A DNA stretch of 64,000 bases, from IMG/VR virus record IMGVR_UViG_3300008629_000003, positions 1 to 64,000 of that record, one strand, 5' to 3'. The stretch is from a virus. The position numbers and the translations under genes are program-made. Shown piece by piece: positions 38,654 through 57,096 of the stretch. Position 1 is the stretch's first letter, and every line of letters starts with the position of its first letter. The notes beneath the pieces are model-generated. The model had not been told where the DNA came from. It made no database searches and saw only the letters and a program-made list of their open reading frames with translations.

Positions 38654-38704
38654 GCGAAAACTGTGTTTGTGGATTGGCGGATTCTGTGACGCTTCACACC
38701 TCAA

Positions 38705-38748
38705 ACAAAAAAAGACCCACCATCCGAGAGCGAAAAAGGATGGTGGGC
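38705..38748 (-). terminator. intrinsic terminator upstream of the protease gene
   Basis: 10-bp stem CCCACCATCC/GGATGGTGGG followed by TCTTTTTTTG. Confidence 0.75.
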
Positions 38749-38796
38749 CGTAGCTGTCGAGAGCCCGCACTCTCATAGCCGCACGCCTACATGTGA

Positions 38797-39072: not shown

Positions 39073-39301
39073 TGATTGCCTCTAGTCGAGCGCGCTCCGC
39101 TAGAAGAGCCCTGAGACGGCGGTGCGTAAAGATGCCGCCGACGTCTTTGCTCAGGGCTTCTTGGGCCTTCTGTATTGCTGGCCCCATCGTGTCGAGCTGG
39201 GCCTTCGCTCGGGCGATCAGCTTCTTGCGCTGCGCGTCCGACTGAAGCCGGTGGGTTTTAAGGCGTACCAGATGACCGACTGCTTGTTGGTGCTGACTCA
39301 T
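39059..39301 (-). CDS. hypothetical protein
   Basis: ATGA overlap. Confidence 0.7.
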   Translation of the reverse strand: MSQHQQAVGHLVRLKTHRLQSDAQRKKLIARAKAQLDTMGPAIQKAQEALSKDVGGIFTHRRLRALLAERARLEAIIGRD

Positions 39302-42300
39302 GCTGCCCCTTTGTGCTTTTCTTGGAGGGCCTTTTGGTACGCGAAGGCGACCCCGTGCTCGTCTAGGTTAGCGAGCGGGCTTTGGAATACATCGGCAAGC
39401 CCGCTTTTACGGCGCAATCTGCGGCGCGCGGACGTGTCGAATTCTGTGTCTGTGTGCCAATCGTGGACGTCCACATTTCCCGTTTGGCCTTGCCGGTACG
39501 CACGGCCGGATCTCTGGGCGTGACTCTTCATCGTTTGCGGGACGTCGTAGTGGTGGATCGCTTTCCCTCGCTGAAGATTGAGCCCCGCCTCTCCCGACGC
39601 CGTGGATACAATGACGTCGTGCTTCGGCGGGCCGCTCCCCTTCGGGTCGAATCCAAGCCTCACCGAATCGCGAGCCGACGCGGTGAGTCCCCCATGGTAC
39701 AGCGCGGAACGTAGACCGCGGCGGCGAAGCTCTTCGTGGATAAGTTTCGCGCCTGCCAGAGAATCGGAGAACACAATCGAAGGTTTCCCCTTTTGGCTGT
39801 TGCCGTCACGGTCCACATAGAGCCCGTGGTTTACGTCGTGCTCCAGCACGTCGGCCATTTGCTTGAGTTTTTGGTTGTGCTCTACCGGGGCCAGGTTTAC
39901 CGCGCGGCGCATAGCGGACTCTCGAATGATTCCGAGGCTCCGCGACAAGTCACGCGCTACGCGTTCGTGGTCGGCGGCGGGAATATCGAACTTTCCAGGC
40001 GCCGCCAAGAACTTCATCGCTTCCACATCTACGCCCCCACGTTGCCGGGCGGCCCTTGCTCGCTCGTACATTTTTTTGGTCTTGTCTACCAACGCCGCGT
40101 GCTTTCCCGTTAGCTTGATCGGTCCTTCGCCGGGCACCTTCCGTCCCTCTACGATCCGCGGGTTGGAGCTATCCAGACGCTTGACCCCTTCTGGCTTCAC
40201 GTGGGCCGTGTAAGTCATGTGGGCCATCTCGCGGCGGATCGCGTCTGGATTGTGCGCGAGGTCTTGTCCATATGCCTGCATGAATTCGTGAGCGTCTTGG
40301 TACTTCACGGGATCGAGCTTCGATGCCATGGCGAAGACTTCGCGCTCATCGTTTTTGTGCGGCGTAGCCGTCCCGGCCAAGTAGTGTGTACGATTGATCG
40401 GGTGACTTACGGCGCTATTCATCATCGCGACCCCGCTTGGGTTGTCTCTCCACGTCCCAAGGTGCGCCTCATCCTCATACACCATGTGCTTTGGGATCCC
40501 GTGGGCATCGAAAGCCTCACGCATCCACCGGGCGCGGGTCTCGGGCGTGGCGCTTTCCATGTCGGTCCTCATTTGCTTGGGTGTTCGGCCATGGTGTTCG
40601 CTCATGAGCTGGAGGGCAGTGTCGCGGAATGCCTGGTGTGTCATCACCCGCATGTGCAACGAATCGTCTTTGAGCATTGCCACGCGGTCGGCGTGCTTTT
40701 TGCCAACGCCTGTGCTCCAATTGTATTGGCCCGGCTCGGTAAATTGAAGCATTGCGCTATCAAATTGCGATTGGACGGCAGCGGGCACCAGAAACAAACC
40801 GTGCTTTGTGTCGCCAGCGCTGTGTAGGTGTGTGAATCCCCCGATCCCGATCGCCGTCTTACCCGTACCAGTCCCAAGGAACGCTCCAACCGATCCAGAT
40901 TCCTGCAACATCTTGATCACGCGCTGGCCGTGGACACGCTCTTTATCCATGCGGATACCAAACAGCGGCACTTTTTGGCCAGCTTTGAAGCCCTTGCCGA
41001 CCTTGCTTACCATGGATGTTAGCTGCTCTTCGGCTTGTTTGCCGAGCGTGTGGCGCTCGCCTTTGCCGGGGTCCGGTAGCTTCCGCGCTTCTTTTTGGGG
41101 CGGCGGTTTTGCGCTGAACATCGCCATTTGGTTTTGCCTGTCGATCTCCTCGTGAACCAAATGCTCAGACGCTTTGCGCTTTGCCGCGCCCTTTCCGCCC
41201 ATATCCGCGAATCCGCCGCGCTCACGTTTTTGCACCTTGGCGTACATGCTTCGTTGTTCCGATAGATACTGGTCCAGCTCATCCGGCGTCGACGTGCCTT
41301 TTATGTGCCGCTCTTTGTTCGGGATTTCTTGAACGCCAACGCGCAACGATCGGCCCGTGAGCTGACCGTGGTGGCGCTGCATCGTTTTTGCGAAGTCGCC
41401 GCGGATCTCGTGCTGCATAGCGGTCTGGGCGAGCTCCAGAGACGTGTGCGCGTTTACAAACTTCCCCCACGCGGTTGGCTGCTTGGCGACCTCGTCTTTG
41501 ATTTCACGAACCCGAGCGGGATCTGGGTTGTCTCCGAGCGCGGAGATCGCATCTTGCAAGCTGGCGCGGCGGTATTTTTTGAGAACTTCGTCACGGTCGC
41601 GCGCCCAGTCCTTCCACTCTGGGGACGGCCCCGGCGCCATGAAGGACATACTCAGCGTCCCCCGATCCGGGTTTGGCTCGGGGCCTAGCTTTTGCATTTC
41701 GGCCATGTATCGGGTTTCATCGACCTTTGTTTTCTTGTCGATCCCCATTCGGTCATAGTAAAAATCTCGGAGCGCGGCCTTGTCGTCGTGCGTCATTTCC
41801 GCCAACGGCTTGAAGGCTGCGACCGCGGTTGGGTGTTCCGCAAGCGACCGAAATACCGCCTCGTGGGTATTTGGGTCGTTCACCTGCAAATCTTGGGAGT
41901 GGATAGCCCCGGCCGTTTTGCCGTAGGTCTTCTCCATGAACCGATCCGAAAGCCCCTCGAAATGTTCCGACACCTCCTCATACTTGACCTTTTTCCCGTC
42001 CTCCCCTCTCATCGGAAAGAGCTCACGCACGTGATCGATGTATTGCTGACGGTCGGGTGCTCGTTCTATGTTCTGCGGGCTCAACAGGTCGGTCATTACG
42101 GCCGACGGGTGCTCGCCCTCTGCCAGCCTAGATCCAATGTGGTCCTCTAAGCCTTGCCGCACGTCTGAACCCAGGTCCAAATCCTGATACAACGGAGGCG
42201 ACTCGGGGACCGGGTCATTAAACGACGAATTTGCACGGCGCGCGATTCCCGTTGGTAACCAGCCCTCCTCGTCGTGTTCGCCGTTACGAATCGCAACGGC

Positions 42301-45300
42301 ACGCGCCCGCTTTTCCATTTCGGCCTTCGGCGTCTTTGTGATCAAATTATCCCAGGAACCGCTCGGGATACTGACCTTTTTCTGCTTGTGGTCGACTTGG
42401 TAATGCTCGGGCCGCAATCCAACGGAATGAAGCCACTGGAGCGTCGTTGCTGTGTCGCCCTTGACTTCTAGTTGGTCGGGTAGACGCGTACGAAATGCGT
42501 GGCCCATGGTTGCCGTCGCTTCCATCTTGCCAATTGCCGCCCCGACGGCCGACTGTGCGTCGTCGATGTCTTGGTTGTAGGCGTCAAGCTGCAACAACGC
42601 CGTCTCAATATCCCCGGCCGTCTCCACCGCTGTTGACAGGTCGGGGACGATCTTGTTTGCGGTGGCGATGGCATCGGCCGCCACCGGTTCCAATCGGTCG
42701 GCGTGATACCCCTCCAGCGCGTGCAAGACCGTGGATCCGTCGTGGCCGTCGGACTCCAGCGCAAACCGAGTCAGAATCGCCGCATTTTTCAATCCTATGG
42801 CCTCGACTGTGCTTCGGTCTAGATAGCGTTGACCACCAATACCAAGAGACACATCGGCGATTTCTGAATAATGCGCCTGGGCCACGGAGTTTAACGCCAC
42901 CGAGCTACCCGTATCGTGCAGACCCAAAAGCTGATTAGTGAGCGACCGCTGGGTCTGCTCTCGTATGGATTCGGTTGTTTTAGTGTCTAGCGCCTCGCTC
43001 ACGTCGATCTTGAAAGCCGACCGAGCCGCTAGATAGTCGCCCTTCTCGATCTCCTTGTTGAGCTTGCGGAACTCTTTCGACTTCTGGGCGAGCTCCACCG
43101 CGTCCGACAACACCTCGCGCATTTCTGCGAGCTCCACCGGCTGGGGGGGGGCTTTTTCTGCCTCAAGCAACCCCAGACGTTTGGCCGTCCCGGCCGCGCG
43201 GGCAAATGACCCGACCATGTCTCCATGCGCCAGGGCCTTCATTGCGGTGTGAGGCGATTCTTCTTTTTCAATTTCTGCAAAACGCTTTGCGCGCGACTTC
43301 TCCACCTCAAACCGGCGCAGCTTGGCGGCGGCGGCGCGCTGGAGCTCTTCTTTGCCGTCGTCGGCCGTTTCTTCCAACCCTCGCCGCTTCATTTCCTCAC
43401 GTACGGCCGGGTGCTTTAGCGCCGCGGCGTCGCCTTCTGATGCGGCCTTTAGCAGTCGCGCGTCTTGCAGGGCTTGAAGCGACCGTCGGGTCACCTCGTC
43501 GCTGGCTTTTGGTGGCGTCGAAGGTATTCCGCCTTTGTCATCCCGACCGCCTAATCGCTCCAGCTTTTTGTCGGGGCTTGGTTGAGAGTCGATGATCTCC
43601 AGCGCAGCCTCAGCCGCTTTGGACCCAACTTCCGACTTTCCCGCTGATCGACGTTGCTTGCGTTTTCGCCGGTCGATTTTTCTCTCTTCTCGTTCGCGGT
43701 TATCTAGTTGCAACGCCAACGTCGCCAACTCTTGCGCCTTTGCCGCTACGGCCGGCGTTTCTTTCATCGCTTGCGCGACGTTGGCTTTCCAACCCGCTTG
43801 CTGGCCTTTTGCTTCGGCCACCTTCTCGGCAATCTCGCGCGCTTGCGCCTTTGCTTCTCGTAGCTGTTTGGCATGGTGCCGCGAAAGCACCAGATTTTTG
43901 GCACCCTTCGGCATGTGGATCAAGTTGGATTCGTCTAGATCCTCGGATACGTTGCCAGCTTTGGCGCGAACCTTTTCGATAAAATCCCGCTCGGCGCCGC
44001 GCTTGGCATCTTTGACCTTTTGCTTGGCCTGCTTTTCGTCCTCAATAGCCGCCGCGCTCATTTTGCTTTTGCGCTTTTTCTCTTCGACGGCCTTCTTCTT
44101 TCGCCGGCCTTTGGCCTCTTTCTTGTACTCCTCCTCCGATTTAATGTCCTTGAGTTTGAGGTAGCTTAGCTTTCCACCGGCGCCGCCGACAATACGGTGA
44201 ACCCCTTCGCCGGCCGGCTCAATGATCACCGGCACCCCGCGCTCATCTTTGCCATTCGGGTGCACGGTGATCCACCGCTGGCCAGGCTTGAGAGGGAGTG
44301 AAGCTTTTCGCATGGGTTGCGGCAACAGACCCGAAAGCTTGTCATAAGTCGCCTGGTATTTCTCGGTCTCCTCTTCGGACGCAAGAAACCACATGACGCT
44401 GGACAGGTGGTCAGCCCACAAACGCCACCGACGCGACGCTCTTTCGATCCGCCCCGGGTCTCTTGACTCCAACGCGCTCTCTAGGATTTTTCGGCGGGGT
44501 CGCTCTTGCTTCTGTAGCTCTTGGACGTTTTCTGGAAACAGGGCGTGGTCGTGGCGATAGTAGAACGAAGAGAGCTCCTCCACGTCGGTGGCTTCGTCGC
44601 CCCCCTCAACTGCTTGGCCTAGATCCATCATCTGGAGGTGACCGTTTGCATCTCGGCCGACCTGGATCTGATCGTTGATTGTCCAGCCGTGGTCGTGCAT
44701 GTGCAACACAGCGTCGCGGACGTGGTCTAGCTCGTCGGGGGTCAGGTCTTTGGCTTCGTCCAAATACGGCCGAATCATCCAAAACCGGCCGTCGTAGACG
44801 CCGCCGCTTGCCTTTTGCACCATCGGCAAATCTTGCAACGCTTTGCGAGCGAGGTATTCGTTGCGCAAATGATCGATCGCTTCGGCTGGCGTTCGGTGGC
44901 CGTCGCTTTCGGCCTGAAACGGCGTCGTGGTTGAAACCTTAACGACGTGGCCGCCCACCCGATACACGACCCCGTCCTGCCCTTTTCCTAGATACTTGCC
45001 GCCACCGCTCAACAGCTTTTTGATTACGGGGTGTGGAGCTCCCTCGGGGTCGTGGTGGAGCTCTTTACGCATGTCGTGAATATGGTGCGGGACCGATTGT
45101 GTCGGCACCTTGTACGGCCGGCTAGTGTGCTCCCCGCCGTGGGTAAACGAGCGCTTACGGGTGAGCCATGTATGATTTTCGTCCTGCTTGTGAACATGAA
45201 TCGACCCGCCGCCGTACGCGTTCGGAGTTTCCCACGACGCGCCGGGCTTGACGTCATTTTCGTGGACCTTTTGCCAGCGCTTGACGCCCGTCTTGGTGGT

Positions 45301-45705
45301 CTTGAGTACAAGCCCCGGCCGGTTTTTTAGGCGCTGGCCTTTCTGCAACGCCTTTGGCACCCACGCCCGCCAATTCTTGATCGCCGACACTGGGAACCGC
45401 TTTTCCCCCTTTGGCGAATGTGCGTCGTGGACCGTGTATTGGCCGTGTTCGATCCGGTGGGATGACCCATCCTCGGCAATGGCCCGCACGCCCGCGGCGC
45501 CCGACGATTGGCTCAGGCCACGGTACGCGTTCCCGTTTGCATCGGCCCAGCGTAGATAAGCGCGACGGCCCCAGCCAACTGACGCATAGCGGTGCTTGTG
45601 GGGCACCTTGACCGAAAACGATTCTCCGCTATCTCCGCAGGTTATGTCCAGCTCGACGTGGCTTGGCCTTGCTGTCGTGCAACACCTACAAGGACGAAAG
45701 GGCAT
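39298..45705 (-). CDS. giant multidomain protein: kinase-like domain plus C-terminal SNF2/SF2 helicase
   Basis: LGKGQDGVVY..VVK..E..MDLG; GTGTGKT, DEAH, TATP, GEAGLNLQ, QRSGRAYR. Confidence 0.85.
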   Translation of the reverse strand: MPFRPCRCCTTARPSHVELDITCGDSGESFSVKVPHKHRYASVGWGRRAYLRWADANGNAYRGLSQSSGAAGVRAIAEDGSSHRIEHGQYTVHDAHSPKGEKRFPVSAIKNWRAWVPKALQKGQRLKNRPGLVLKTTKTGVKRWQKVHENDVKPGASWETPNAYGGGSIHVHKQDENHTWLTRKRSFTHGGEHTSRPYKVPTQSVPHHIHDMRKELHHDPEGAPHPVIKKLLSGGGKYLGKGQDGVVYRVGGHVVKVSTTTPFQAESDGHRTPAEAIDHLRNEYLARKALQDLPMVQKASGGVYDGRFWMIRPYLDEAKDLTPDELDHVRDAVLHMHDHGWTINDQIQVGRDANGHLQMMDLGQAVEGGDEATDVEELSSFYYRHDHALFPENVQELQKQERPRRKILESALESRDPGRIERASRRWRLWADHLSSVMWFLASEEETEKYQATYDKLSGLLPQPMRKASLPLKPGQRWITVHPNGKDERGVPVIIEPAGEGVHRIVGGAGGKLSYLKLKDIKSEEEYKKEAKGRRKKKAVEEKKRKSKMSAAAIEDEKQAKQKVKDAKRGAERDFIEKVRAKAGNVSEDLDESNLIHMPKGAKNLVLSRHHAKQLREAKAQAREIAEKVAEAKGQQAGWKANVAQAMKETPAVAAKAQELATLALQLDNREREERKIDRRKRKQRRSAGKSEVGSKAAEAALEIIDSQPSPDKKLERLGGRDDKGGIPSTPPKASDEVTRRSLQALQDARLLKAASEGDAAALKHPAVREEMKRRGLEETADDGKEELQRAAAAKLRRFEVEKSRAKRFAEIEKEESPHTAMKALAHGDMVGSFARAAGTAKRLGLLEAEKAPPQPVELAEMREVLSDAVELAQKSKEFRKLNKEIEKGDYLAARSAFKIDVSEALDTKTTESIREQTQRSLTNQLLGLHDTGSSVALNSVAQAHYSEIADVSLGIGGQRYLDRSTVEAIGLKNAAILTRFALESDGHDGSTVLHALEGYHADRLEPVAADAIATANKIVPDLSTAVETAGDIETALLQLDAYNQDIDDAQSAVGAAIGKMEATATMGHAFRTRLPDQLEVKGDTATTLQWLHSVGLRPEHYQVDHKQKKVSIPSGSWDNLITKTPKAEMEKRARAVAIRNGEHDEEGWLPTGIARRANSSFNDPVPESPPLYQDLDLGSDVRQGLEDHIGSRLAEGEHPSAVMTDLLSPQNIERAPDRQQYIDHVRELFPMRGEDGKKVKYEEVSEHFEGLSDRFMEKTYGKTAGAIHSQDLQVNDPNTHEAVFRSLAEHPTAVAAFKPLAEMTHDDKAALRDFYYDRMGIDKKTKVDETRYMAEMQKLGPEPNPDRGTLSMSFMAPGPSPEWKDWARDRDEVLKKYRRASLQDAISALGDNPDPARVREIKDEVAKQPTAWGKFVNAHTSLELAQTAMQHEIRGDFAKTMQRHHGQLTGRSLRVGVQEIPNKERHIKGTSTPDELDQYLSEQRSMYAKVQKRERGGFADMGGKGAAKRKASEHLVHEEIDRQNQMAMFSAKPPPQKEARKLPDPGKGERHTLGKQAEEQLTSMVSKVGKGFKAGQKVPLFGIRMDKERVHGQRVIKMLQESGSVGAFLGTGTGKTAIGIGGFTHLHSAGDTKHGLFLVPAAVQSQFDSAMLQFTEPGQYNWSTGVGKKHADRVAMLKDDSLHMRVMTHQAFRDTALQLMSEHHGRTPKQMRTDMESATPETRARWMREAFDAHGIPKHMVYEDEAHLGTWRDNPSGVAMMNSAVSHPINRTHYLAGTATPHKNDEREVFAMASKLDPVKYQDAHEFMQAYGQDLAHNPDAIRREMAHMTYTAHVKPEGVKRLDSSNPRIVEGRKVPGEGPIKLTGKHAALVDKTKKMYERARAARQRGGVDVEAMKFLAAPGKFDIPAADHERVARDLSRSLGIIRESAMRRAVNLAPVEHNQKLKQMADVLEHDVNHGLYVDRDGNSQKGKPSIVFSDSLAGAKLIHEELRRRGLRSALYHGGLTASARDSVRLGFDPKGSGPPKHDVIVSTASGEAGLNLQRGKAIHHYDVPQTMKSHAQRSGRAYRQGQTGNVDVHDWHTDTEFDTSARRRLRRKSGLADVFQSPLANLDEHGVAFAYQKALQEKHKGAA

Positions 45706-45708
45706 GTG

Positions 45709-45933: not shown

Positions 45934-45936
45934 ATT

Positions 45937-49758: not shown

Positions 49759-50132
49759 AGTTTAAACGTCCCAGGGTACCGGGTGACGGGGGCAGCATAG
49801 GACCGAAAGACTCCGCGGTCGGGAACCTTGCCCTCTCGGAATTGTGCCACAAGTTGAGGCGCTAGAGCTCGGGCCGCTTTCATCGTTGGGCAAATGATAT
49901 GGTAGGGGAGCGCGTGGTTCGGTGTTTCAACCGACAAAACGCCGACACCCGCCGCGGACTTCACGAACCGAAACATCAACCCGTCAACGCGGAACGAACG
50001 CCCACCCTGCGACGCTCCGGCCCCGCCCGTTGGAGACCAAACCGTCTCCACCGCTTTGGCGAGCTTGGCCAAGCCGATGCGGCGTCGAATGGTCAGCCTT
50101 ACCGGAATCCCGTATCCATCAACTAGCTTCAT
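49755..50132 (-). CDS. hypothetical protein
   Basis: ATGA overlaps on both sides. Confidence 0.7.
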   Translation of the reverse strand: MKLVDGYGIPVRLTIRRRIGLAKLAKAVETVWSPTGGAGASQGGRSFRVDGLMFRFVKSAAGVGVLSVETPNHALPYHIICPTMKAARALAPQLVAQFREGKVPDRGVFRSYAAPVTRYPGTFKL

Positions 50133-53100
50133 TTTTTGCCTCGTTTAAACGGGTTGTGCTTTTTGAGCTTTTCCAGGTATTTGGCGAACGCGCTCTCCTC
50201 TTTGGACAATACCCCGCGCGCCTTTTCCATAGTCTTGCTCCCTGATATCGTGAGACCTTGCCGGTAAGCTTCCACCACGGTGGGGTCGATGTAATTGTCG
50301 AGCGCGGTCTTTACTATGTGGCCCCATTCCGTCTTAACTTTCGGGCCATCTTTGGCCGCTACGACCTTGTGGTCGGTGTCTCCCAGAGCCTTCTGGTACG
50401 CCTTGCGCTCCTTTGCCGAGTGAAACCCCACGTGGCCGCCCGCGTAGACCTTGCCCCCGTGCTTCTTTGCCATTGCTCGATCTGGCTCTGCGTGCTTGAC
50501 GAAGTGCTTCCGCGTTTTCCCTTTTTTGTGCCCTAGCGCTTTCGCTGCTGCCATTGCGGCCTTCTCGATCTTGACCTCTGCGTCTTTGGCGCTTGTTGGC
50601 GGTCCAAGCTTGTCGGCTGCTTGCGCGAACAAATTCGACGCATGGAACGTCCGAAAGTCTTTGACTGTGCCGCCGTTGGTGTGAGCTCGGACATAATTTC
50701 GAAGAACCGCCGCGCTAACCGGCGCGGATGTGCCGTTCGCCCGAACATATTGGAACAGGTTTTTAGACGCGCCTGGCTGCTTTAGAAGGTGCGCCACGAT
50801 CCGCGCCACCTTTGGGTCTTTCATCGTTTTAACCTGCGGCACGCCTGCCTTGCCGGCGTATCGCATGGTCACCGTGTCACCATTGACCCGCACATGCGAG
50901 GATTTTAGGGTCGTCACCCCATACGATCCCTTGGCGGCGCTCGACGTGTTTCCCGCGCGAATTAGGGTCGCATCAACCAGCGCCACCATCGCCGCCGAAA
51001 CGGCATCTCTCGACGTTGGCGCTAGGTCTAGGTGGTCCTGTATGATGCCCCTCGCGTGCCCGAGACCCGTGGTGAAACGGGCCATTTTACGGAACTTTTC
51101 CTCCGCATTTTTTACTAGGTACGCATTCCGATAGCTGTTGACCTTTTTCCCCTGGGCGTTGCGCCAACTCATAGAGCTGTTCTCTTCCGGCTTAGAGATC
51201 GTGACCTTTGTTCCGAGGGGTGGATACTTGCTGTGCTCTGGAAATCGCTTTTGCAGATCGGCAAGGTACTTCTTGTCGGCGCTCTTTTTCTTCGCGGCGC
51301 GACGCTCGGCCGGCGTCGCCTCTTTTTCACCGGTGGCGGCTTTTCGCGCCGCGACGGCCGGGTGGCTGTCTTGGTGCTTCGCGTAGTGCCCATGGTCGAC
51401 CTGCTCTTGCTGGCCGGTTTTTTTGTCGATGACCGTGACGCCCTTTTCGCCGGAGCTCATGGTCACGCCGCGGCGCACCTTACCAGATTTGGAGCGGTAC
51501 TTTACGACTTCGCCCTTTGGTTTTCTCGGCTCTTTTTTTTTTTCAGTCTTGGGCGGGCGCGCTTGTGCTTGTGGGTCTTGCCCCGTCTTTTGCCACCGAC
51601 GGACGCCCGGGTTTTTCTTTGATGCGACAAGCTGTTGGCCCTGGTGCTTACCTGCGCCGGCCTGGGCCGGGTCCACCTTGGGCTGACCGTTGCCGACGGC
51701 CTTTCTCATTACAAGCCGGAGCCCAAACCGGATCCGCGCTTTGTTGAGCTCTTCCCAAGCATCGTGTTTAGCCCACGCGCGAGACTCCGCGGCCGTTTGC
51801 CTTTTTTCGCCGCGCCTGTAATCTGCCTCCTTCACTTCTTGGCGCATCTTTTTGTAATGTTTGGTTTCCAGTGCTTTGAGGCGCTTCTTTTCAGCGGGAC
51901 TCAACACGCGCTCGGTTTTCACGCGGGTGATGACGGTTTGCTTGTCGCCTCGCCATTCGTCGTGTTTCTTGATCGTGCCGTGCAGCTTGTACGAATGGCC
52001 GACTTTGAACGGCGCTCGGCCTTTGGGTGCGTTTTCATATGGCTGGGCGGACGGAGCGTGATCGTAGGTGGGCGAGCTTGAGAAGTATTTTAACGTTTGC
52101 CCGCTTTTCGTCTTGAAGGTCAACAGGGTGGTCGTGCCATATTGCCCGTGGATGTCGCGCGTTGACACCAGCGTCGCCTGTTGTGCCGGTGTGGGCGGCT
52201 TGACCCCTTTCTTGCGCTGTGCCTGGGTCATTGCCAACTCCCCAAACTTTTCGCCGGGCTTCCCTATGTGCTTTTGCGGTGGCGGGGCCTTCTTTGCGGG
52301 CGCGGCTTTTTCTGTTGCCTTCTTTTCGGCCTCTCTCTTTAGGTGGTTGTCGTACGCGTTAACCGCTGACACCGCCACGCCCATGTGGTTCTCGGGCACG
52401 CCCGTGTTGCCTGCTCCATGGTTTTCGCCCAAGGCGCGTAATTTTTGATAGTACCCAGAACGGCTATATGCCGGGATCTTTTTCATCCACGCGATCACCT
52501 TTTTGGCTTTCTCGGCGGCTTTCTTGTCTGTTCGGGCCGATGACCATACTCCGACGCTCTGCTGGCTTTTCAGGAAACTACTTGTGCTCTTGACTTCCGA
52601 TCCCGGCCGGGAATTCGCATCCGCGCGGGCGGCCGACATATACCCATCGTGCGGGTTTCCTGGGTGGTCCAACCAGTGAGCCGTCGCCTGTATGATTGCA
52701 GGAAGGGCAACCTCTAGTTTCCCGCGCGGCTCCTTCGCGTAACTGTCAAACTCTTTTGTGTCCCAACTGGATAACCACTCCGCAGCCGTCGCGGCGGTTT
52801 TGGGGTCTTGACCGAAAAAATCACCTAGACACGTTCGGCCGACTTGGACGTGCTTGTTGTGGTCATCCTTTAGGACGTGCAGCTTGGACCGTTGGCGGTT
52901 TTTTCCGCAAAAATCACAATGTGAGCCCGACTTGTGAAATTGGTGCGGCACTTTTTGGCCGCGGTGGTGGTTGACCATGTTTCGCTTCGCGCCGGGCTCA
53001 AAGCTTCCCACGTAAGCCCAGCCGTGGGACTTCATTTCCGGCCCGGTGATTTTGACCGCCACGACCGGCACCTTTTGTCGCACCTGTTTCGTGTCGCGTT

Positions 53101-53950
53101 CGCCCATCATGGAGTAGCTACCCTCCACGGGTTCCCCGGGATGCTCCCACGGCACCGTCCGCAACATCGTGGCCATTTTCTTGCCCAAGATTTCCATATG
53201 CGGCGGCTGTAGTCCTAGCTTGATCGCTCGCTTTTGCATTCGAGCAAATTTCTTTTTAACCGTCGCTAAGTTTTCTTGTGGAATAGCGTGCAGGCTAGAG
53301 CGCGGCCCTTCATTAGCCGCCTGGATCGCCTTCTCTTTGGCGTCTTTTAACTTCCCGTGGCCAACGCTGACCCACTCCACATGATCGTCGTCGAAGACGT
53401 GGCCGACCTTCCACTTCTTCCCGGCCTTCTCAATGACCGTCGTGTTGTCGCCGACGGTGACTAGGTAGCCCCCTTTGCCGTCGCGCTTCGTTTTCGACTT
53501 GATCGGCGCCGGCTCCTCTACATCACCCTCAGTGTACCGCTGCCTAGCCTGGGCACGCTGGGCCTTAATCTTGGCCCAGACGTCGTCTTCCTTTTTCTCG
53601 GGCGCTGTCTTTTTGGCCGGTGCCTTTTTCTTCGCCGCGGCTTTCTTCTTCGCCGCGGCTTTCTTCTTTACCGGTGCTTTCTTCTTCGCCGGCGTGGCGG
53701 CTTTGGGCTCGTCGTCGAAAATCTCGGGAAACAGAATCCGAAAAGGATCCATCTCTTCCGGCTTCTCGGCCGGCTTCTCGGCCGGCTTCTTCTTGGGCTT
53801 CTTCTTGGCGGCTGGCTTGACCTTGTCTGGATACTCGTAGCGCCATTTTCCGCTCGGGAGCTTTTTCTTCCACCCGCCTTTGTTGCCGCGGGTGACGCGT
53901 TGCCAGCCAACGCCCGGGGGCTTTGCCGATTTCAGGAGAATGATCTTCAT
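50129..53950 (-). CDS. large multidomain protein with C-terminal DNA topoisomerase IB domain
   Basis: start MKIILLKS by ATGA overlap; IRAG, YGVTTL, GKAG, KDFRT, GH, NYIDP catalytic motifs; PAKKK repeats; CDFC..C zinc module. Confidence 0.85.
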   Translation of the reverse strand: MKIILLKSAKPPGVGWQRVTRGNKGGWKKKLPSGKWRYEYPDKVKPAAKKKPKKKPAEKPAEKPEEMDPFRILFPEIFDDEPKAATPAKKKAPVKKKAAAKKKAAAKKKAPAKKTAPEKKEDDVWAKIKAQRAQARQRYTEGDVEEPAPIKSKTKRDGKGGYLVTVGDNTTVIEKAGKKWKVGHVFDDDHVEWVSVGHGKLKDAKEKAIQAANEGPRSSLHAIPQENLATVKKKFARMQKRAIKLGLQPPHMEILGKKMATMLRTVPWEHPGEPVEGSYSMMGERDTKQVRQKVPVVAVKITGPEMKSHGWAYVGSFEPGAKRNMVNHHRGQKVPHQFHKSGSHCDFCGKNRQRSKLHVLKDDHNKHVQVGRTCLGDFFGQDPKTAATAAEWLSSWDTKEFDSYAKEPRGKLEVALPAIIQATAHWLDHPGNPHDGYMSAARADANSRPGSEVKSTSSFLKSQQSVGVWSSARTDKKAAEKAKKVIAWMKKIPAYSRSGYYQKLRALGENHGAGNTGVPENHMGVAVSAVNAYDNHLKREAEKKATEKAAPAKKAPPPQKHIGKPGEKFGELAMTQAQRKKGVKPPTPAQQATLVSTRDIHGQYGTTTLLTFKTKSGQTLKYFSSSPTYDHAPSAQPYENAPKGRAPFKVGHSYKLHGTIKKHDEWRGDKQTVITRVKTERVLSPAEKKRLKALETKHYKKMRQEVKEADYRRGEKRQTAAESRAWAKHDAWEELNKARIRFGLRLVMRKAVGNGQPKVDPAQAGAGKHQGQQLVASKKNPGVRRWQKTGQDPQAQARPPKTEKKKEPRKPKGEVVKYRSKSGKVRRGVTMSSGEKGVTVIDKKTGQQEQVDHGHYAKHQDSHPAVAARKAATGEKEATPAERRAAKKKSADKKYLADLQKRFPEHSKYPPLGTKVTISKPEENSSMSWRNAQGKKVNSYRNAYLVKNAEEKFRKMARFTTGLGHARGIIQDHLDLAPTSRDAVSAAMVALVDATLIRAGNTSSAAKGSYGVTTLKSSHVRVNGDTVTMRYAGKAGVPQVKTMKDPKVARIVAHLLKQPGASKNLFQYVRANGTSAPVSAAVLRNYVRAHTNGGTVKDFRTFHASNLFAQAADKLGPPTSAKDAEVKIEKAAMAAAKALGHKKGKTRKHFVKHAEPDRAMAKKHGGKVYAGGHVGFHSAKERKAYQKALGDTDHKVVAAKDGPKVKTEWGHIVKTALDNYIDPTVVEAYRQGLTISGSKTMEKARGVLSKEESAFAKYLEKLKKHNPFKRGKK

Positions 53951-56900
53951 GCTTCGTCCCCAATGTGGACATAGTGTCCATGTTCGACCCGGTGGAGCTC
54001 TCCGGTCTTGTGGTCCATAACCGACACGCCGTCCAATCCTGACGCGTGCAGGTCGCCCGTACAGGGCTCTCCGGTCTTGGGGTGGCGGTACCTCACCCCC
54101 TTGCCCTTGGAACCCCCTGGGGTGCCGCGGTGCGCCTTGCGCAGCATGACACGGGCTTTCTGTAGACTGCTTGGGCCAAGCTTTTTGTTTTTCGCCAGGT
54201 ATTTCAACACCGCGGCGCGATCGCTCCACTTGGCTTTGGGCAGGTGAATCTGAAAGAAACTTGCCCCCGAGTCTTTGTCCACCGCCGAAACAAACCACTT
54301 GTCGGGCTTGTCCACAACGTACGCGTGGATCTCTCCGTCGGCAAACGTCCCCAACAACTCCATGCCGGCCACATTTGGCACGTTGGGCGCTGGCGGGTGG
54401 GCGGACATAGGCCCGTGGTACTGCGGCGTTACTTTTGGCTTGGCGTGCCCGCTCGTTTCCTTCCACGGCCTCGTATGCTCCGCGTCGGCCCATTTACCCC
54501 CGCGGGGTCCGAGGAAGGGTCCAGCGCTGGCCTTACGCAGCATGACACGGGCTTTCCGTAAACCGTGCTCATACTCGTAATCTTCGCGGGCATCTTTTGC
54601 GTCTCGGTATGCGTTGACGTTCGCTAGTAGCGATTTCCTGCTAAACGCGACGACCTCAGACGCTTTTGAGGTAGCAGCGCCCGGGTTCTTTACGATGATC
54701 CCGTCGTGCCCCTGACTTATCAGCTTGCGAACGTCGGCGTGCGTTAGGTCTTTTGGGCTGATTTCTCCCTTGTTTTCTACTACCTTGGGGTTGCTTAGGG
54801 CTACGTGGGTTTTGTGTAGGTTGGGTCCGTATCGGTTGGCATATTTCCGGCGTGGAGACAGGTAAATGCCGGCCTCGGACCCAGCGTCCGCTCCGTGAAT
54901 AGTTCGACCGTGGTTCGCCTGATAGACCGTCAACGGCCCGCCGTCTTGACCCGTTAAAGGGATCGGCGGTCCATGTTGTTTATAGACGCTCGACAAGTCG
55001 TGATCGGCGGCGGGGTGTGACGCAGCGGCGGTGGATTCCTTCCACGGCCTTGTGTGCTCCGCGTCGGCCCACTTACCACCGCGGGGTCCGAGGAAGGGTC
55101 CAGCGCTGGCCTTACGCAGCACAAACCGAGCGCGGCGCCCCTTGGTCCGCATTCGCTTGTCGAGCTCTGCGTCTAGAGCGGTCTGGAGTAGGCTGTGCGC
55201 TTTTCTCATGTTGCCACCGCCCACGGCCTTGACCCTCACTTCGTACGTCCCGTCTTTTCGCCGCTTGACCTTTTCCACCTGAATTTTTCCGCCGACCACC
55301 ACCTCATGCTCGGCGTGGAACGTGGACAGCCCGCTAATGTCCGTCCCTCGTTTTGTCTTCATGGTCAGGATAACCGGGTGACGTTTTGTCGGTTTGGTGT
55401 GGCCCTCGTCCTTTTGCTCGGTTGCTGCGAAGGTTTCGGCGGCGGATCTCTGCTTAGACCAACTCGACATCTCGCGCAAGTCTATCTCTGCCCCTTTGGC
55501 TAGGCCCTTTATTGCCCCGGGTGGTAAGCGCACGCCGCGGTGGAGCTCTACGGCGTAATCACCCTCCACCTTGGCCAGCGTCTTGAGCACTTTGTAAGCT
55601 TGCTGGTGTAATTGCTTCGTGCTTTCGGCTTTCCATTGAAGGGTCTGGACTGGCTTTGCAAGCTTTTTTTGCCATTGCTTCGGGTCGCGCACGGACTTCA
55701 CATTGCCGGCCGTCCATAGCGTTAGCGCATCGAGCAAGGCCGCGTGCGTAGCAGGCAACGCGGCGCGGTGCCATTGAAATTTGAGCGCCTCTTCGCCGCC
55801 GTGGTACCTCGCGAGGCTAAACAGCTTCCACACGGTGTCGGGGTCTTTTCCTGACTTGCGCGCGGCCTCTTTGACCGATTTTCTTCCTGCGGCAACACAG
55901 TCGTCAAATGTCGCGCCCCCGGCGTTCTGCGCTCTCTTAAACGCCATCCGATAATGGAGACTCAACCCATGAAAATCATATCCAACATGCTTGAGGGCTT
56001 GTTTTGCTTCCTCGTTGGGAACGTGCGACATATTCGAAACAGGGTGATATTTCTTTTCCTCTTCAAGCTCGAAATAGGCTGCCTCTAGTCCTTTGGTGGT
56101 CCAGTTTACGGCGCCCCCCGGGGGCATGGTTCGCACCCGAATCTCTTGGTCTGGATACCAGACCTGCGTGTGCGTGCTCCACTTGCCCTGGAAGACTCGA
56201 CTATAGCCAAGCCCATCACCTAACGGCTTCCATTCGCTTGCGGCTCCCGTGCGTTGGGCTTCATCGGCCGGGGGTCGGGCAAGGTCGGCGGCTTCTTTTA
56301 GGTCCGACGCGCGGACTTTTTCGTGGTGAGCTTTATACTTTTCGAGGAATTCGGCCTCTGTCAGCTTGAGCTTTTCCCGGTATGGCTTGAGAAATCCATG
56401 GTCCTGCGCGTCTTTGTAGTGTCGCCACAACCCGACGGACATACTGTCCAGACCATTCCCTTCGTAATCGTGGTAGGCGTCTTGTATCCATTCGTTTAGC
56501 GCTGCCTCGTGGGCGGCTGGGCCGGCTTCTAGCGCGGCCTGGCGCTTTGCTTCCGTCTGCTTGTCGCGCGCAGTCTTCCACGCGCCACGCATCGCCTTTA
56601 GGATGTCACTCCGCGCCACCCCCTTGATCTCCTTTCCGATGACAGGCAAAAGATCGGCAATCTTGCCACCCCGCAGGAGCAACATTTGCGTTTTGCCCTC
56701 GTTCAAATCTGGCACCAACTTTTCCATTTCGGGCCATTTCTTTACTAAGAACATCTCAAGGCGTCGGCGGGCCTCTACGTCTTCTTTGTGGTGGTGGTGG
56801 TGGCTTTTGTAATAGGCGAGCGCATGTTTCCAAGCCCCCGCGGCGTCGTCCCCCCATTCTTCGGGGAGGCTTGGCTTCATGTCGTCGAAACGCATGTGAA

Positions 56901-57096
56901 AGTCTTTGCGGTTGCTATCTTCCGACCAGAACTGTCTATATTTCCATTTCTGCGCCCATTTTCTAGCCGCTTTGGGCGCCGGCTTAAACGACTTGTCGCC
57001 GACGCGGGTGTGTTCCTTCACTCTCACCACCTTGCCGCTCGGCAGGGTGCGAAAGTGAGACTTTACTTGGTGGGCTTTACCAAGAACAATCCGCAT
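53947..57096 (-). CDS. polyvalent protein with two ADP-ribosyltransferase domains
   Basis: LHRG..SSWS..EHEV (R-S-E type) and GIYLS..YANRYG..NP..GHDGII..EVVAF (ART-PolyVal-like). Confidence 0.8.
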   Translation of the reverse strand: MRIVLGKAHQVKSHFRTLPSGKVVRVKEHTRVGDKSFKPAPKAARKWAQKWKYRQFWSEDSNRKDFHMRFDDMKPSLPEEWGDDAAGAWKHALAYYKSHHHHHKEDVEARRRLEMFLVKKWPEMEKLVPDLNEGKTQMLLLRGGKIADLLPVIGKEIKGVARSDILKAMRGAWKTARDKQTEAKRQAALEAGPAAHEAALNEWIQDAYHDYEGNGLDSMSVGLWRHYKDAQDHGFLKPYREKLKLTEAEFLEKYKAHHEKVRASDLKEAADLARPPADEAQRTGAASEWKPLGDGLGYSRVFQGKWSTHTQVWYPDQEIRVRTMPPGGAVNWTTKGLEAAYFELEEEKKYHPVSNMSHVPNEEAKQALKHVGYDFHGLSLHYRMAFKRAQNAGGATFDDCVAAGRKSVKEAARKSGKDPDTVWKLFSLARYHGGEEALKFQWHRAALPATHAALLDALTLWTAGNVKSVRDPKQWQKKLAKPVQTLQWKAESTKQLHQQAYKVLKTLAKVEGDYAVELHRGVRLPPGAIKGLAKGAEIDLREMSSWSKQRSAAETFAATEQKDEGHTKPTKRHPVILTMKTKRGTDISGLSTFHAEHEVVVGGKIQVEKVKRRKDGTYEVRVKAVGGGNMRKAHSLLQTALDAELDKRMRTKGRRARFVLRKASAGPFLGPRGGKWADAEHTRPWKESTAAASHPAADHDLSSVYKQHGPPIPLTGQDGGPLTVYQANHGRTIHGADAGSEAGIYLSPRRKYANRYGPNLHKTHVALSNPKVVENKGEISPKDLTHADVRKLISQGHDGIIVKNPGAATSKASEVVAFSRKSLLANVNAYRDAKDAREDYEYEHGLRKARVMLRKASAGPFLGPRGGKWADAEHTRPWKETSGHAKPKVTPQYHGPMSAHPPAPNVPNVAGMELLGTFADGEIHAYVVDKPDKWFVSAVDKDSGASFFQIHLPKAKWSDRAAVLKYLAKNKKLGPSSLQKARVMLRKAHRGTPGGSKGKGVRYRHPKTGEPCTGDLHASGLDGVSVMDHKTGELHRVEHGHYVHIGDEA
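54457..55121. repeat. 86-bp direct repeats (54457-54542 and 55036-55121) flanking one ART module
   Basis: both encode LRKASAGPFLGPRGGKWADAEHTRPWKE and differ only at synonymous sites. Confidence 0.9.

What the first reader, a model, noticed from the sequence alone, without database searches (positions are those of the whole stretch)
39298..57096. About 18 kb of giant enzyme polyproteins punctuated by putative prohead-protease sites ([LM]xK-A/G/S)
Seen: four huge ORFs lie between MuF and the prohead protease and carry two ART domains, topoisomerase IB, a kinase-like domain and two SNF2 helicases. Their termini and domain borders repeatedly show hydrophobic-x-K-small motifs: MRIVLGKA, NMRKA, FVLRKA, GLRKARVMLRKA, SLQKARVMLRKA; MKIILLKS, LVMRKA, TMEKA; VLKKS, SLSKA, KMAKG, VFVKA; ALQKG, PMRKA. 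The same motif marks the capsid N-terminus (ALEKA), the protease (LVKS, LRKG, LAKA), the scaffold (MAKG, MAKA, LEKG, LVKS, MGKA, LAKA), the portal tail (MTKA) and MuF (MRKG, LRKA). Known: the capsid of the related-type phage A511 is matured by cleavage after Lys at a K-S bond, and MuF-linked polyvalent proteins are proposed to be packaged and injected. Inference: these are head-packaged polyproteins cut into separate effector enzymes that are injected with the DNA to take over the host or counter its defences.
Basis: partly seen in the sequence, partly recalled or inferred. Interest (0 to 1): 0.85.

Follow-up and report, generated by a model that had tools for sequence, protein, structure and literature searches.

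The report
Lysine cut-site junctions in phage cargo
An uncultured phage encodes four giant multi-enzyme proteins among its head genes, and their starts and module joints carry the same short lysine motif that saturates its scaffold and head protease, so they are probably loaded into the capsid and cut into separate enzymes, although no cut has been shown.

Summary
The window is an IMG/VR phage record. The four ORFs lie between a MuF-like gene and an assemblin/T4-gp21-like protease.

Hydrophobic-x-Lys followed by Ala/Gly/Ser is far above chance in the scaffold and the protease of this phage and of all 8 other relatives' loci examined. It is conserved at the capsid N-terminus in 8 of 9 phages.

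In the giant proteins the motif is not enriched overall. G1 is marginal and G2-G4 show nothing. Several listed sites are therefore probably chance.

The real signal is positional:
- A 7-residue leader (MRIVLGK|A, MKIILLK|S) also recurs at internal module borders.
- The borders defined by homology coincide with these sites.
- The same site precedes the same modules in relatives, including cultured Bordetella phage PHB04.

The best reading is head-packaged polyvalent cargo processed in trans by the prohead protease. Packaging and cleavage are inferred, not shown. I found no description of this junction cassette in print. This scan has noted similar findings on other DNA.

The parts
53947..57096 (-). 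G1, 1049 aa. Order: 7-residue leader; helical N-region; weak R-S-E ART (about 440-625); junction; ART-PolyVal/PARP-like ART (about 700-845); junction; small beta domain (about 905-977); junction; C-terminal HGHY module.
57076..57096 (-). G1 N-terminal leader MRIVLGK|A
   Evidence: pLDDT <50
55111..55212 (-). G1 junction 1 (residues 629-662): NMRK|A ... RFVLRK|A, followed by the GPRGGKW tag
   Evidence: (72 alignment starts at 650-669)
54532..54564 (-). G1 junction 2 (residues 845-855): GLRK|ARVMLRK|A
   Evidence: repeat D6; 97 alignment starts at 840-859
54136..54168 (-). G1 junction 3 (residues 977-987): SLQK|ARVMLRK|A
   Evidence: (repeat D6)
54450..54542 (-). Copy 1 of a 93-nt direct repeat (92% identical) encoding LRKASAGPFLGPRGGKWADAEHTRPWKE. 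With copy 2 it flanks the ART-PolyVal cassette.
   Evidence: D2
55029..55121 (-). Copy 2 of the 93-nt junction repeat
   Evidence: D2
50129..53950 (-). G2, 1273 aa. Order: leader MKIILLK|S; Lys/Ala-rich tract; phrog_2319 domain with a Cys cluster; junction; HGHY-like module; topoisomerase IB.
51701..51751 (-). G2 junction (residues 734-750): ELNK|ARIRFGLRLVMRK|A, lying between the phrog_2319 domain and topoisomerase IB
49755..50132 (-). Small ORF (125 aa), translationally coupled between G2 and G3. Function unknown.
45937..49758 (-). G3, 1273 aa. Sites VVVLKK|S and SLSK|A near the N-terminus, an acidic linker, an SNF2 helicase (713-1194) and a C-terminal KMAK|GRRLVFVK|A.
   Evidence: the sites have no comparative support
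39298..45705 (-). G4, 2135 aa. Order: Cys-rich N-domain (a separate gene in L016); VPK|ALQK|G; kinase-like region; PMRK|A; RWITVHPNG module; coiled region; Lvh-like SNF2 helicase.
44305..44316 (-). G4 site PMRK|A (K467) in front of the RWITVHPNG module
   Evidence: the same site type precedes this module in 7 of 7 homologues
37775..38800 (-). Prohead protease, assemblin/T4 gp21-like. The start is uncertain (GTG at 38800 or ATG at 38653).
37039..37806 (-). Scaffold protein, 255 aa, with 7 motif sites and acidic EEIDEDE repeats
35468..36979 (-). Major capsid protein, with the candidate maturation site ALEK|A after residue 17 (nt 36929-36940)
57861..59021 (-). MuF-like head morphogenesis protein. 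The site SPLRK|A (K50) aligns with PDLEK|A in G001.
59436..61286 (-). Portal protein. The C-terminal site GMTK|A matches PMQK|A in G001.

Best explanation
The four giant ORFs are phage polyvalent (multi-effector) proteins encoded inside the head-assembly module.

Proposed mechanism:
1. They are made late, together with portal, MuF-like protein, protease, scaffold and capsid protein, and are built into the prohead.
2. Each protein starts with a short leader (M-R/K-h-h-h-x-K) that ends in the protease site [L/M]-x-K | [A/G/S]. The same leader plus site, often preceded by a second site, recurs at internal joints between modules.
3. The assemblin/T4-gp21-like serine protease then acts. It degrades the scaffold at 6-7 such sites, trims 17 residues from the capsid protein and trims itself on both sides of its core.
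4. It also cuts the giants at these joints.

Predicted products:
- two ADP-ribosyltransferases
- a topoisomerase IB
- a kinase-like protein
- two SNF2 helicases
- several small modules

Many fragments would start with a short Gly/Pro-rich tag such as AGPFLGPRGGKW..HT.PW. The fragments stay in the head and enter the host with the DNA.

Shown here: the gene order, the domain content, the motif statistics, the conservation of sites and the fold of the protease. Inferred: packaging, cleavage, injection and any role in the host.
For: (1) Protease identity.
- The AF2 model has mean pLDDT 84 with a confident core at 14-205.
- The best structural match is T4 gp21 (Z 8.5, rmsd 3.2, 130 residues), followed by about 30 herpesvirus assemblins at Z 5.4-8.4.
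- His73 and Ser161 are invariant in 68 family members.

(2) Specificity.
- In 7 scaffolds, 50 of 112 lysines have a hydrophobic P3 and a small P1'. In this phage's tail proteins and TerL the figure is 17 of 237 (odds ratio 10.4, p 1e-15).
- Scaffold and/or protease ORFs are enriched in this phage and in G001 (= G002), PHB04, L014, L015, L016, L019, L020 and L021. Neighbouring tail ORFs are not.
- The MCP N-terminal site falls in one alignment column in 8 of 9 phages.
- The protease's own sites at K10 and K229 are conserved in 58 and 63 of 68 relatives. They lie in stretches with pLDDT <50 on either side of the core.

(3) Giants, positional evidence.
- Of 1497 candidate start codons in the whole record, 12 fit the leader pattern. 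The ones that are real gene starts are G1, G2 and possibly the protease.
- In G1, local alignments to 149 database proteins start in piles at 650-669 (72 starts) and 840-859 (97 starts). Coverage drops at 620-640, 830-840 and 980-990, which is where K632, K662, K848, K855, K980 and K987 lie.
- AF2 puts the stretches right after these sites at pLDDT <50: 652-696, 861-898 and 991-1029.
- Relative G001 has seven giants. Three have the leader at the very N-terminus (MRLYILLK|A, MIRFLLK|S, MSGPRFLVK|A), and there are many double-site joints.
- PHB04's annotated methylase, helicase, 169-aa protein and ppGpp-synthetase-like protein all start with the leader.
- The site precedes the RWITVHPNG module in 7 of 7 homologues, whether the module is N-terminal or internal.
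- Of 195 GPRGG-type tags in 81 of 149 proteins, 158 are preceded by the site at a distance of 4-6 residues. Among all lysines in those proteins, 10% are in this context.

(4) No alternative processing enzyme. None of the four giants has an HExxH motif.

(5) Packaging precedent. G4 residues 946-2121 are 30% identical (2e-104) to Lalka27a gp41. The preprint reports that protein as virion-associated (passages seen).

(6) Analogy. T4 Alt, an ART, loses a 7-residue N-terminal propeptide to gp21, and IPIII has a 10-residue capsid targeting sequence (passages of PMC9026906).
Against: - No call shows a cleaved product, a virion protein of this phage, or injection.
- By count the motif is not enriched in G2 (6 vs 7.47), G3 (5 vs 4.57) or G4 (10 vs 8.03).
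- A weight matrix trained only on the scaffolds of the other six phages puts 7 of 109 G1 lysines above the tail proteins' 99th percentile. Four of those 7 are inside domains. For G2, G3 and G4 the figures are 2 of 185, 2 of 95 and 1 of 168. The matrix does not rank K467 or K122 of G4, or K26, K39 and K1250 of G3, near the top.
- In the G1 model, K848/K855 and K980/K987 sit in predicted helices at the ends of folded domains (block pLDDT 90/77 and 85/72), not in the disordered stretches themselves.
- The three strongest G1 joints are not independent. They are 91-92% identical DNA repeats.
- The fixed 4-6 residue spacing between the site and the GPRGG tag would also fit a single conserved structural or recognition element.
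- Motif positions 101 and 152 of the protease are conserved in 51 of 68 relatives yet lie inside its folded core. A conserved motif is therefore not always a cut site.
- The MuF label rests on one weak PHROG hit.
- One search used the 90%-cluster representative P0001, which differs from the window's G1 at a few residues.
Confidence: 0.55

Rival explanations
1. The leader and junction motif is a packaging or recognition element, or simply the conserved N-terminal cap of short tags such as GPRGGKW, and it is not cut. The giants are packaged whole, as reported for N4 virion RNA polymerase. The resemblance to scaffold sites reflects shared binding to the protease or scaffold core, not cleavage.
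For: - The spacing between the site and the GPRGG tag is fixed at 4-6 residues in 158 of 195 modules.
- K848/K855 and K980/K987 lie in predicted helices with pLDDT 72-90.
- Iyer et al. note that the N4 vRNAP is packaged unprocessed (passage seen).
- Conserved motif positions 101 and 152 lie inside the protease core.
Against: - Three unrelated downstream modules (GPRGGKW, LFGG..VKAH and RWITVHPNG) all follow the same tripeptide pattern.
- That pattern is the one that saturates scaffolds, which are classic degradation substrates.
- Double sites spaced 7-13 residues apart (79 of 158 sites) are hard to explain as a structural cap.
Confidence: 0.25
2. The giants are late-expressed cytoplasmic enzymes for replication, recombination or host modification that merely sit in the head operon. 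They are neither packaged nor cut by the head protease. The motifs in them are chance in Lys- and Ala-rich sequence.
For: - There is no count enrichment in G2-G4.
- These proteins are rich in lysine, at 7.5-14.8%.
- Topoisomerase and helicases have obvious cytoplasmic roles.
Against: - The leader occurs at the exact N-terminus of G1 and G2 and of several relatives' giants.
- Sites coincide with homology borders.
- The site is conserved before the RWITVHPNG module in 7 of 7 homologues.
- A G4 homologue is reported in Lalka27a virions.
- The genes are chained to each other by ATGA overlaps inside the head module.
Confidence: 0.1
3. The joints are mainly recombination scars. Conserved linker DNA is used to shuffle effector cassettes, and the peptide motif is a by-product.
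For: - 93-nt (92% identical) and 34-nt (91% identical) direct repeats flank the ART-PolyVal cassette and the next module in G1.
- P0002 shares that cassette at 68% identity but with a different joint.
Against: DNA repeats explain recent duplication within G1. They do not explain conservation of only the h-x-K-small pattern across joints whose other residues and DNA differ, nor its presence in scaffold, MCP and protease. Shuffling and cleavage are compatible with each other.
Confidence: 0.1

Closest known systems
Polyvalent proteins of phages and conjugative elements (Iyer, Burroughs, Anand, de Souza, Aravind 2017, PMC5512222; abstract and passages seen)
   Same: These are large polypeptides that string together unrelated effector domains (ART, kinase, SNF2 helicase and others). 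They are encoded next to head genes such as MuF and portal, and are predicted to be packaged and injected. Homologues of G1 carry that paper's signature Pfam domains: ART-PolyVal, InPase, ddrB-ParB, LPD1 and DarA_C.
   Different: In the passages I saw, that paper proposes release by embedded zincin-like metallopeptidase domains, or by a C-terminally fused assemblin-like peptidase. Here the four giants have no HExxH motif. The candidate enzyme is the separate prohead protease acting in trans at a repeated leader-plus-site cassette. 'GPRGG' and 'interdomain' do not occur in that paper's main text. Its FTP supplements were not available to me.
Phage T4 gp21 prohead protease with the capsid targeting sequences of IPI-III and the propeptides of Alt (review PMC9026906; passages seen)
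   Same: A gp21/assemblin-fold protease is the best structural match. The site has the P3-hydrophobic, x, P1 architecture. A very short N-terminal propeptide sits on packaged, injected proteins: 7 residues on the ART Alt and 10 on IPIII. The scaffold is cut into pieces, and the protease trims itself.
   Different: P1 is Lys here and Glu in T4. T4 cargo proteins are separate small genes, whereas here the leader-plus-site unit is repeated inside polyproteins of 115-235 kDa. Sequence similarity to gp21 is undetectable (no Pfam or PDB sequence hit).
phiKZ / SPN3US head proteolysis (SPN3US gp245, PMC10052503; passages seen)
   Same: Many internal head and ejection proteins are processed by the prohead protease at a short motif. 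Propeptides are cut at several sites, and a logo was derived from proteomics.
   Different: Those cuts remove N-terminal propeptides of 20-254 residues at x-x-E type sites. Release of several enzymes from one chain is not described in the passages I saw.
Phage P1 Dar antirestriction system (DarB, DdrB, DarA), as described in passages of PMC5512222, and the Lalka27a DarB homologue and Lvh (bioRxiv 10.64898/2026.04.20.719267; passages seen)
   Same: Very large helicase- or methylase-bearing proteins are carried in the virion. Lalka27a Lvh (gp41) is a true homologue of G4 residues 946-2121. It has PALLAK|A in front of its RWITLKPHG module.
   Different: Lvh is encoded among the tail genes of Lalka27a. 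The preprint's virion protein table (Supplementary Table S4) could not be read, and the passages seen do not say whether Lvh is processed.
HK97 gp4 protease cutting gp5 after Lys103 (K|S), and the Listeria phage A511 capsid K|S cut (both recalled, not checked in any call; a search for A511 gave nothing usable)
   Same: Maturation cleavage occurs after Lys with a small P1' residue.
   Different: There is no cargo polyprotein. Family membership of this protease with HK97 gp4 (S78) was not tested.

Membership tests
Polyvalent proteins (Iyer et al. 2017) | Two or more unrelated effector or enzymatic domains in one polypeptide | tested here: met
   G1 has two ART-type regions. G2 has a phrog_2319 domain plus Topoisom_I. 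G4 has a kinase-like region plus an SNF2 helicase.
Polyvalent proteins (Iyer et al. 2017) | Presence of signature polyvalent-protein domains (for example ART-PolyVal PF18760) | tested here: inconclusive
   G1 itself gives no Pfam hit at E<=0.01. However, 24 of 46 aligned homologues hit PF18760, and the model matches PARP domains.
Polyvalent proteins (Iyer et al. 2017) | Encoded with head/packaging genes (portal, MuF, terminase) | tested here: met
   The gene order is TerL, portal, MuF-like, G1-G4, protease, scaffold, MCP.
Polyvalent proteins (Iyer et al. 2017) | Carried in the virion and delivered to the host | not testable with these tools
   The only support is a homologue of part of G4 reported in Lalka27a virions.
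Assemblin / T4 gp21-like prohead serine protease | Assemblin fold | tested here: met
   T4 gp21 5jbl_B gives Z 8.5, rmsd 3.2 over 130 residues. About 30 herpesvirus proteases give Z 5.4-8.4. Unrelated folds start at Z 5.4. In Foldseek the top rows are all assemblins, but at E of only 0.01.
Assemblin / T4 gp21-like prohead serine protease | Catalytic His and Ser | tested here: inconclusive
   His73 and Ser161 are invariant in 68 sequences. Their superposition on the catalytic residues of gp21 was not examined.
Assemblin / T4 gp21-like prohead serine protease | Gene next to scaffold and major capsid genes | tested here: met
Assemblin / T4 gp21-like prohead serine protease | Cleaves scaffold, capsid and cargo at a defined motif | not testable with these tools
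   The only evidence is motif statistics.
T4-type capsid targeting sequence (CTS) | Short N-terminal peptide ending in the head protease's site, on otherwise unrelated head-module proteins | tested here: met
   This holds for G1, G2, three G001 giants, five PHB04 CDSs and one L021 giant.
T4-type capsid targeting sequence (CTS) | Needed for loading into the prohead and removed afterwards | not testable with these tools
   There is no experiment. The complex-prediction job gave no verdict.
Topoisomerase IB (PF01028) | Profile match above the curated cut-off | tested here: met
   88.3 bits against a cut-off of 23.7, E 6.4e-25.
SNF2 helicase (PF00176) | Profile match above the curated cut-off | tested here: met
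   G3 scores 53.1 bits against 24.9. In G4, SNF2-rel is below the cut-off (17.7), but Helicase_C scores 50.2 against 23.5 and phrog_62 gives 5e-58.
MuF (Phage_Mu_F, PF04233) | Profile match | tested here: not met
   There is no Pfam hit at E<=5. The only hit is phrog_2468 'head morphogenesis' at 1e-4. I therefore call the protein MuF-like on position and that weak hit.

The most novel reading that the evidence does not exclude
Phages with a Lys-specific gp21/assemblin-type head protease share a portable 'cleavable junction cassette'. It consists of a first site, a 7-residue leader, a second site [L/M]-x-K|[A/G/S], and then a short Gly/Pro-rich tag (GPRGGKW..HTIPW, LFGG..VKAHxRK, or RWITVHPNG).

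The cassette would let any effector gene be appended to a head-packaged polyprotein. It would be released inside the capsid, carrying at its new N-terminus a tag that serves retention on DNA or exit through the tail. Near-identical DNA copies of the cassette would drive shuffling of effector modules between phages.

This would be a general assembly and delivery grammar for injected phage effectors, testable in the cultured Bordetella phage PHB04.
Probability: 0.35. Interest if true: 0.85.

Novelty: new variant of a known kind. Interest (0 to 1): 0.68.

Why it matters
Polyvalent proteins are thought to be a main way in which phages deliver anti-defence and take-over enzymes. How a 100-250 kDa chain is loaded and turned into working enzymes is open.

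A shared leader-plus-site cassette read by the head protease would give:
- a rule for predicting which phage proteins are capsid cargo
- a rule for predicting the mature enzyme boundaries, which helps expression and structural work
- a possible handle for loading foreign proteins into capsids, as the T4 CTS allows

The pattern is present in a cultured phage (PHB04), so ordinary virion proteomics can test it.

Tried and rejected
- Sequence searches that gave nothing. G1 and the protease have no usable Pfam, PHROG or PDB sequence matches.
- G1 has only one near-length relative in the word-indexed search and no IMG/VR locus by peptide patterns.
- tblastn of the 51-aa junction module against cultured phages and against plasmids found nothing at E<=1e-3. 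This is a short query with the low-complexity filter on, so it does not show whether plasmid polyvalent proteins lack the cassette.
- Complex prediction of the protease core with G1 residues 836-870 gave no verdict: score 0.00, controls not run.
- The first G1 alignment (A2) placed the ART1 homologues on the ART2 region, so I did not fold it. The folded alignment A3 leaves ART1 effectively as a single sequence, and that region is poorly modelled.
- The scaffold-trained weight matrix did not separate the claimed sites of G2-G4 from background.
- A literature search for the A511 capsid cut returned nothing usable.
- Searches for the junction idea in print found only Iyer et al. and a Thermus phage preprint: 'GPRGGKW' anywhere gave 0 papers; 'polyvalent protein' with 'prohead protease' gave 2 papers; searches added nothing further.
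K167, K534 and K954 of G1 lie inside domains.

Full report
**What the window is.** The window is the first 64 kb of a 72.7-kb IMG/VR virus record with estimated completeness of 81%. A head module runs on the minus strand. Its order is large terminase (61678-63552), portal (59436-61286), a MuF-like protein (57861-59021), two small ORFs, four giant ORFs with two small ORFs between them, two more small ORFs, a protease (37775-38800), a scaffold (37039-37806) and the major capsid protein (35468-36979). Tail genes follow. The nearest cultured phages by TerL are only 25-32% identical: Pseudomonas phage Touem01, Aeromonas phage ST4, Bordetella phage PHB04 and the Thermus phages Cumys, phiMa and Lalka.

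**The four ORFs.**
- G1 is 53947-57096 (1049 aa).
- G2 most likely starts at the ATG at 53950. This overlaps the G1 stop as ATGA and gives 1273 aa beginning MKIILLKS.
- G3 is 45937-49758 (1273 aa).
- G4 is 39298-45705 (2135 aa).
- G1, G2, a 125-aa ORF and G3 are chained by ATGA overlaps.

**Domains.**
- Pfam gives topoisomerase IB in G2 (6.4e-25), SNF2 in G3 (3.2e-14) and Helicase_C in G4 (3.5e-13).
- PHROGs gives DNA helicase phrog_62 for G3 and G4, and an unknown family, phrog_2319, in G2.
- G1 has no direct Pfam hit. However, 24 of 46 aligned homologues hit ART-PolyVal PF18760. The AF2 model's confident domain at about 700-860 matches tankyrase PARP catalytic domains (probability 1.00, E about 5e-3, about 158 columns).
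- The first ART region has only a sub-threshold PF01129 hit (E 0.0012).
- The kinase-like region of G4 is a lead from the protein atlas only, at 0.91-0.93 to OspG, T7-kinase and Kinase-PolyVal clusters.
- The MuF label is weak: phrog_2468 at 1e-4 and no Pfam hit at E<=5.

I ran 2000 residue shuffles per protein for [LMIV]xK[AGS].
- The scaffold has 7 sites against 0.80 expected; no shuffle reaches this.
- The protease has 5 against 1.03 (p 0.002).
- The MuF-like protein has 4 against 1.14 (p 0.021).
- G1 has 10 against 4.98 (p 0.03).
- G2 (6 vs 7.47), G3 (5 vs 4.57), G4 (10 vs 8.03), MCP, TerL and all 16 tail-region proteins are not enriched.

**The motif as the head protease's specificity.** Two IMG/VR relatives with 61% MCP identity (G001 and G002), six more loci found with a protease-family alignment and PHB04 were analysed in the same way. 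In every one, the ORFs at the protease and/or scaffold position are enriched:
- G001: 6 vs 0.95 and 7 vs 1.24.
- PHB04: 8 vs 1.56 and 8 vs 1.71.
- L014: 6 vs 1.6 and 8 vs 1.1.
- L015: 6 vs 1.6 in one fused ORF call.
- L016: 5 vs 1.0 and 5 vs 0.6.
- L019: 9 vs 1.0.
- L020: 6 vs 1.1 and 6 vs 1.5.
- L021: 4 vs 1.0 and 11 vs 1.9.

Downstream tail ORFs are not enriched.

Pooling 7 scaffolds, 50 of 112 lysines have a hydrophobic P3 (mostly Leu or Met) and a small P1'. In this phage's tail proteins and TerL the figure is 17 of 237 (odds ratio 10.4, p 1e-15).

The candidate MCP maturation site falls in one alignment column in 8 of 9 phages. L016 has Gln in place of Lys there. Portal C-terminal and MuF-like N-terminal sites are shared with G001.

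**The protease.** It belongs to a family of 84 clusters with no Pfam annotation but one.
- In a 68-sequence alignment His73 and Ser161 are invariant.
- The motif is conserved near the N-terminus in 58 of 68 sequences and at position 229 in 63 of 68. It is also conserved at 101 and 152 (51 of 68 each), which lie inside the core.
- AF2 gives mean pLDDT 84, a confident core at 14-205, stretches below 50 at 1-12, 207-213 and 224-250, and a C-terminal helical hairpin.
- Foldseek's top rows are herpesvirus assemblins, at weak E-values.
- On the second look the best match is T4 gp21 (Z 8.5, rmsd 3.2, 130 residues), followed by about 30 assemblins.

The P3-hydrophobic, x, P1 layout matches what is known for gp21 (L/I-x-E) and for assemblin. 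That comparison is recalled, apart from the gp21 passages.

**The giants: position rather than count.**

*Leaders at the N-terminus.* G1 and G2 start with MRIVLGK|A and MKIILLK|S. Of 1497 candidate start codons in all six frames of the whole record, 12 fit a leader pattern. The ones that are real gene starts are G1, G2 and the short form of the protease, whose true start is uncertain.

*Leaders at internal joints.* The same heptapeptide recurs inside the proteins after another site: GLRK|ARVMLRK|A, SLQK|ARVMLRK|A, ELNK|ARIRFGLRLVMRK|A and KMAK|GRRLVFVK|A.

*Coincidence with homology borders in G1.* An exhaustive HMMER search with G1 found 374 proteins at E<=0.001; the best 150 rows, P0001 itself among them, were listed, which leaves 149 other proteins. 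Local alignments to those 149 start in piles at 650-669 (72 starts) and 840-859 (97 starts), and end at 610-619, 680-699, 820-829 and 880-899. K632, K662, K848, K855, K980 and K987 therefore sit at borders. K167, K505, K534, K762, K803 and K954 are internal.

*AF2 of G1* (30-row alignment, mean pLDDT 62). The model is confident for residues 700-860 and 905-980. It falls below 50 at 1-19, 652-696, 861-898 and 991-1029. K848/K855 and K980/K987 lie in short terminal helices just before the disordered stretches, not within them.

*Non-independence.* The three strongest joints of G1 are not independent. Direct repeats of 93 nt (92% identical) and 34 nt (91% identical) flank the ART-PolyVal cassette and the next module. 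A related protein, P0002, shares that cassette at 68% identity with a single site where G1 has the double site.

**Comparative support.**
- G001 has seven giants over about 25 kb (29321-54797) inside the roughly 28 kb between its MuF-like gene and its protease. Three start MRLYILLK|A, MIRFLLK|S and MSGPRFLVK|A. Their internal joints repeat the double-site layout in front of an LFGG..VKAHxRK tag.
- In PHB04, the annotated N6-methylase (2097 aa), the SF2 helicase (1518 aa), a 169-aa protein and a ppGpp-synthetase-like protein all lie between portal and protease. One hypothetical protein lies elsewhere. All five start with the leader.
- The RWITVHPNG module is preceded by the site in 7 of 7 homologues, whether N-terminal (PHB04) or internal. 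An eighth regex match was an unrelated antisense frame.
- Among the 149 best HMMER hits, 81 proteins carry 195 GPRGG-type tags. Of these, 158 are preceded at 4-6 residues by [LIVMF]xK[AGS], with P3 Leu in 109 and P1' Ala in 101. Of 30 N-terminal tags, 23 have the site. Of the 158, 79 have a second K-small 3-16 residues upstream. Among all lysines in these proteins, 1056 of 10551 are in this context.
- Twelve of these proteins were scanned with Pfam. Ten carry known domains, among them the polyvalent-protein domains InPase, ddrB-ParB, LPD1 and DarA_C. No family covers the tag.

**Packaging.**
- No call shows packaging for this phage.
- G4 residues 946-2121 are homologous to Lalka27a gp41 (30% identity, 2e-104). 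The preprint calls gp41 a large virion-associated helicase identified by peptide mass fingerprinting. I saw main-text passages only; its supplementary table could not be read.
- None of the four giants has an HExxH motif. The embedded metallopeptidase route proposed by Iyer et al. (passages) is therefore not available here.

**Limits.**
- A weight matrix trained only on the scaffolds of the other six phages does not single out the claimed sites of G2-G4. Lysines above the tail 99th percentile number 7 of 109 in G1, 2 of 185 in G2, 2 of 95 in G3 and 1 of 168 in G4.
- The complex-prediction job gave no verdict.
- The junction module was not found in cultured phages or plasmids by tblastn at E<=1e-3. 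That search is insensitive for so short a query.
- One search used the cluster representative P0001, which differs from the window's G1 at a few residues.

**Comparison and novelty.** The proteins fit the polyvalent-protein concept. The processing idea parallels T4 (a 7-residue Alt propeptide and the 10-residue IPIII CTS) and phiKZ/SPN3US. The new element is a repeated leader-plus-site cassette at module joints, read by a separate Lys-specific gp21-like protease and followed by short conserved tags. I found no description of it: 0 papers for 'GPRGGKW', 2 papers for 'polyvalent protein' with 'prohead protease', neither describing it, and nothing further. This scan's own index holds several AI notes of the same theme on other genomes. 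They are not independent evidence.

**Verdict.**
- I put the motif as protease specificity at about 0.75, the giants as head cargo at about 0.7, and cleavage at the joints at about 0.55.

Noticed in passing
window 53947-53950, 50129-50132, 49755-49758, 39298-39301, 38797-38800: ATGA (or GTGA) start/stop overlaps chain G1, G2, the 125-aa ORF and G3. G4 is chained in the same way to the next small ORF. The GTG at 38800 overlaps the stop of the upstream ORF, so the protease may start 49 codons before the ATG at 38653.
   Followed up: partly
window 53584-53691: An 18-nt periodic tract in G2 encodes an AKKK/AAKK-type Lys/Ala-rich low-complexity stretch, possibly DNA-binding.
   Followed up: no
window 37039-37806 and 59436-59760: The scaffold has four acidic EEIDEDE repeats. 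The portal C-terminal tail has PPEDDGYGQPA-type repeats just before the candidate GMTK|A site.
   Followed up: no
window 45331-45705; L016 8958-9521: The Cys-rich N-terminal domain of G4 (about 110 aa) is a separate 187-aa gene in relative L016. The first G4 site (VPK|ALQK|G) therefore sits at what is a gene boundary in another phage.
   Followed up: partly
L016 11704-13254: The capsid protein of this relative has Gln where the others have the P1 Lys (RLEQ|AVVAG), although its scaffold is still Lys-motif rich.
   Followed up: no
window 54127-54459 and 51101-51703; G001 A1700 C-terminus: A small 'G..V.V.D..TG....V.HGHY' module ends G1, precedes the topoisomerase in G2, and ends a G001 giant. 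Its function is unknown.
   Followed up: no
L008/L007 (G001 38198-54797): The G001 giants contain HExxH motifs (HELTH, HEWGH), probably the zincin-like peptidases of polyvalent proteins. The four giants of this window have none.
   Followed up: partly
L003 38786-40059 (PHB04): PHB04 encodes a ppGpp-synthetase/hydrolase-like protein and a Ser/Thr phosphatase between portal and protease. The former starts with the leader MIVFLK|A.
   Followed up: partly
window 1-15400: The first 15 kb hold short ORFs on both strands, of early or accessory type. They were not examined.
   Followed up: no
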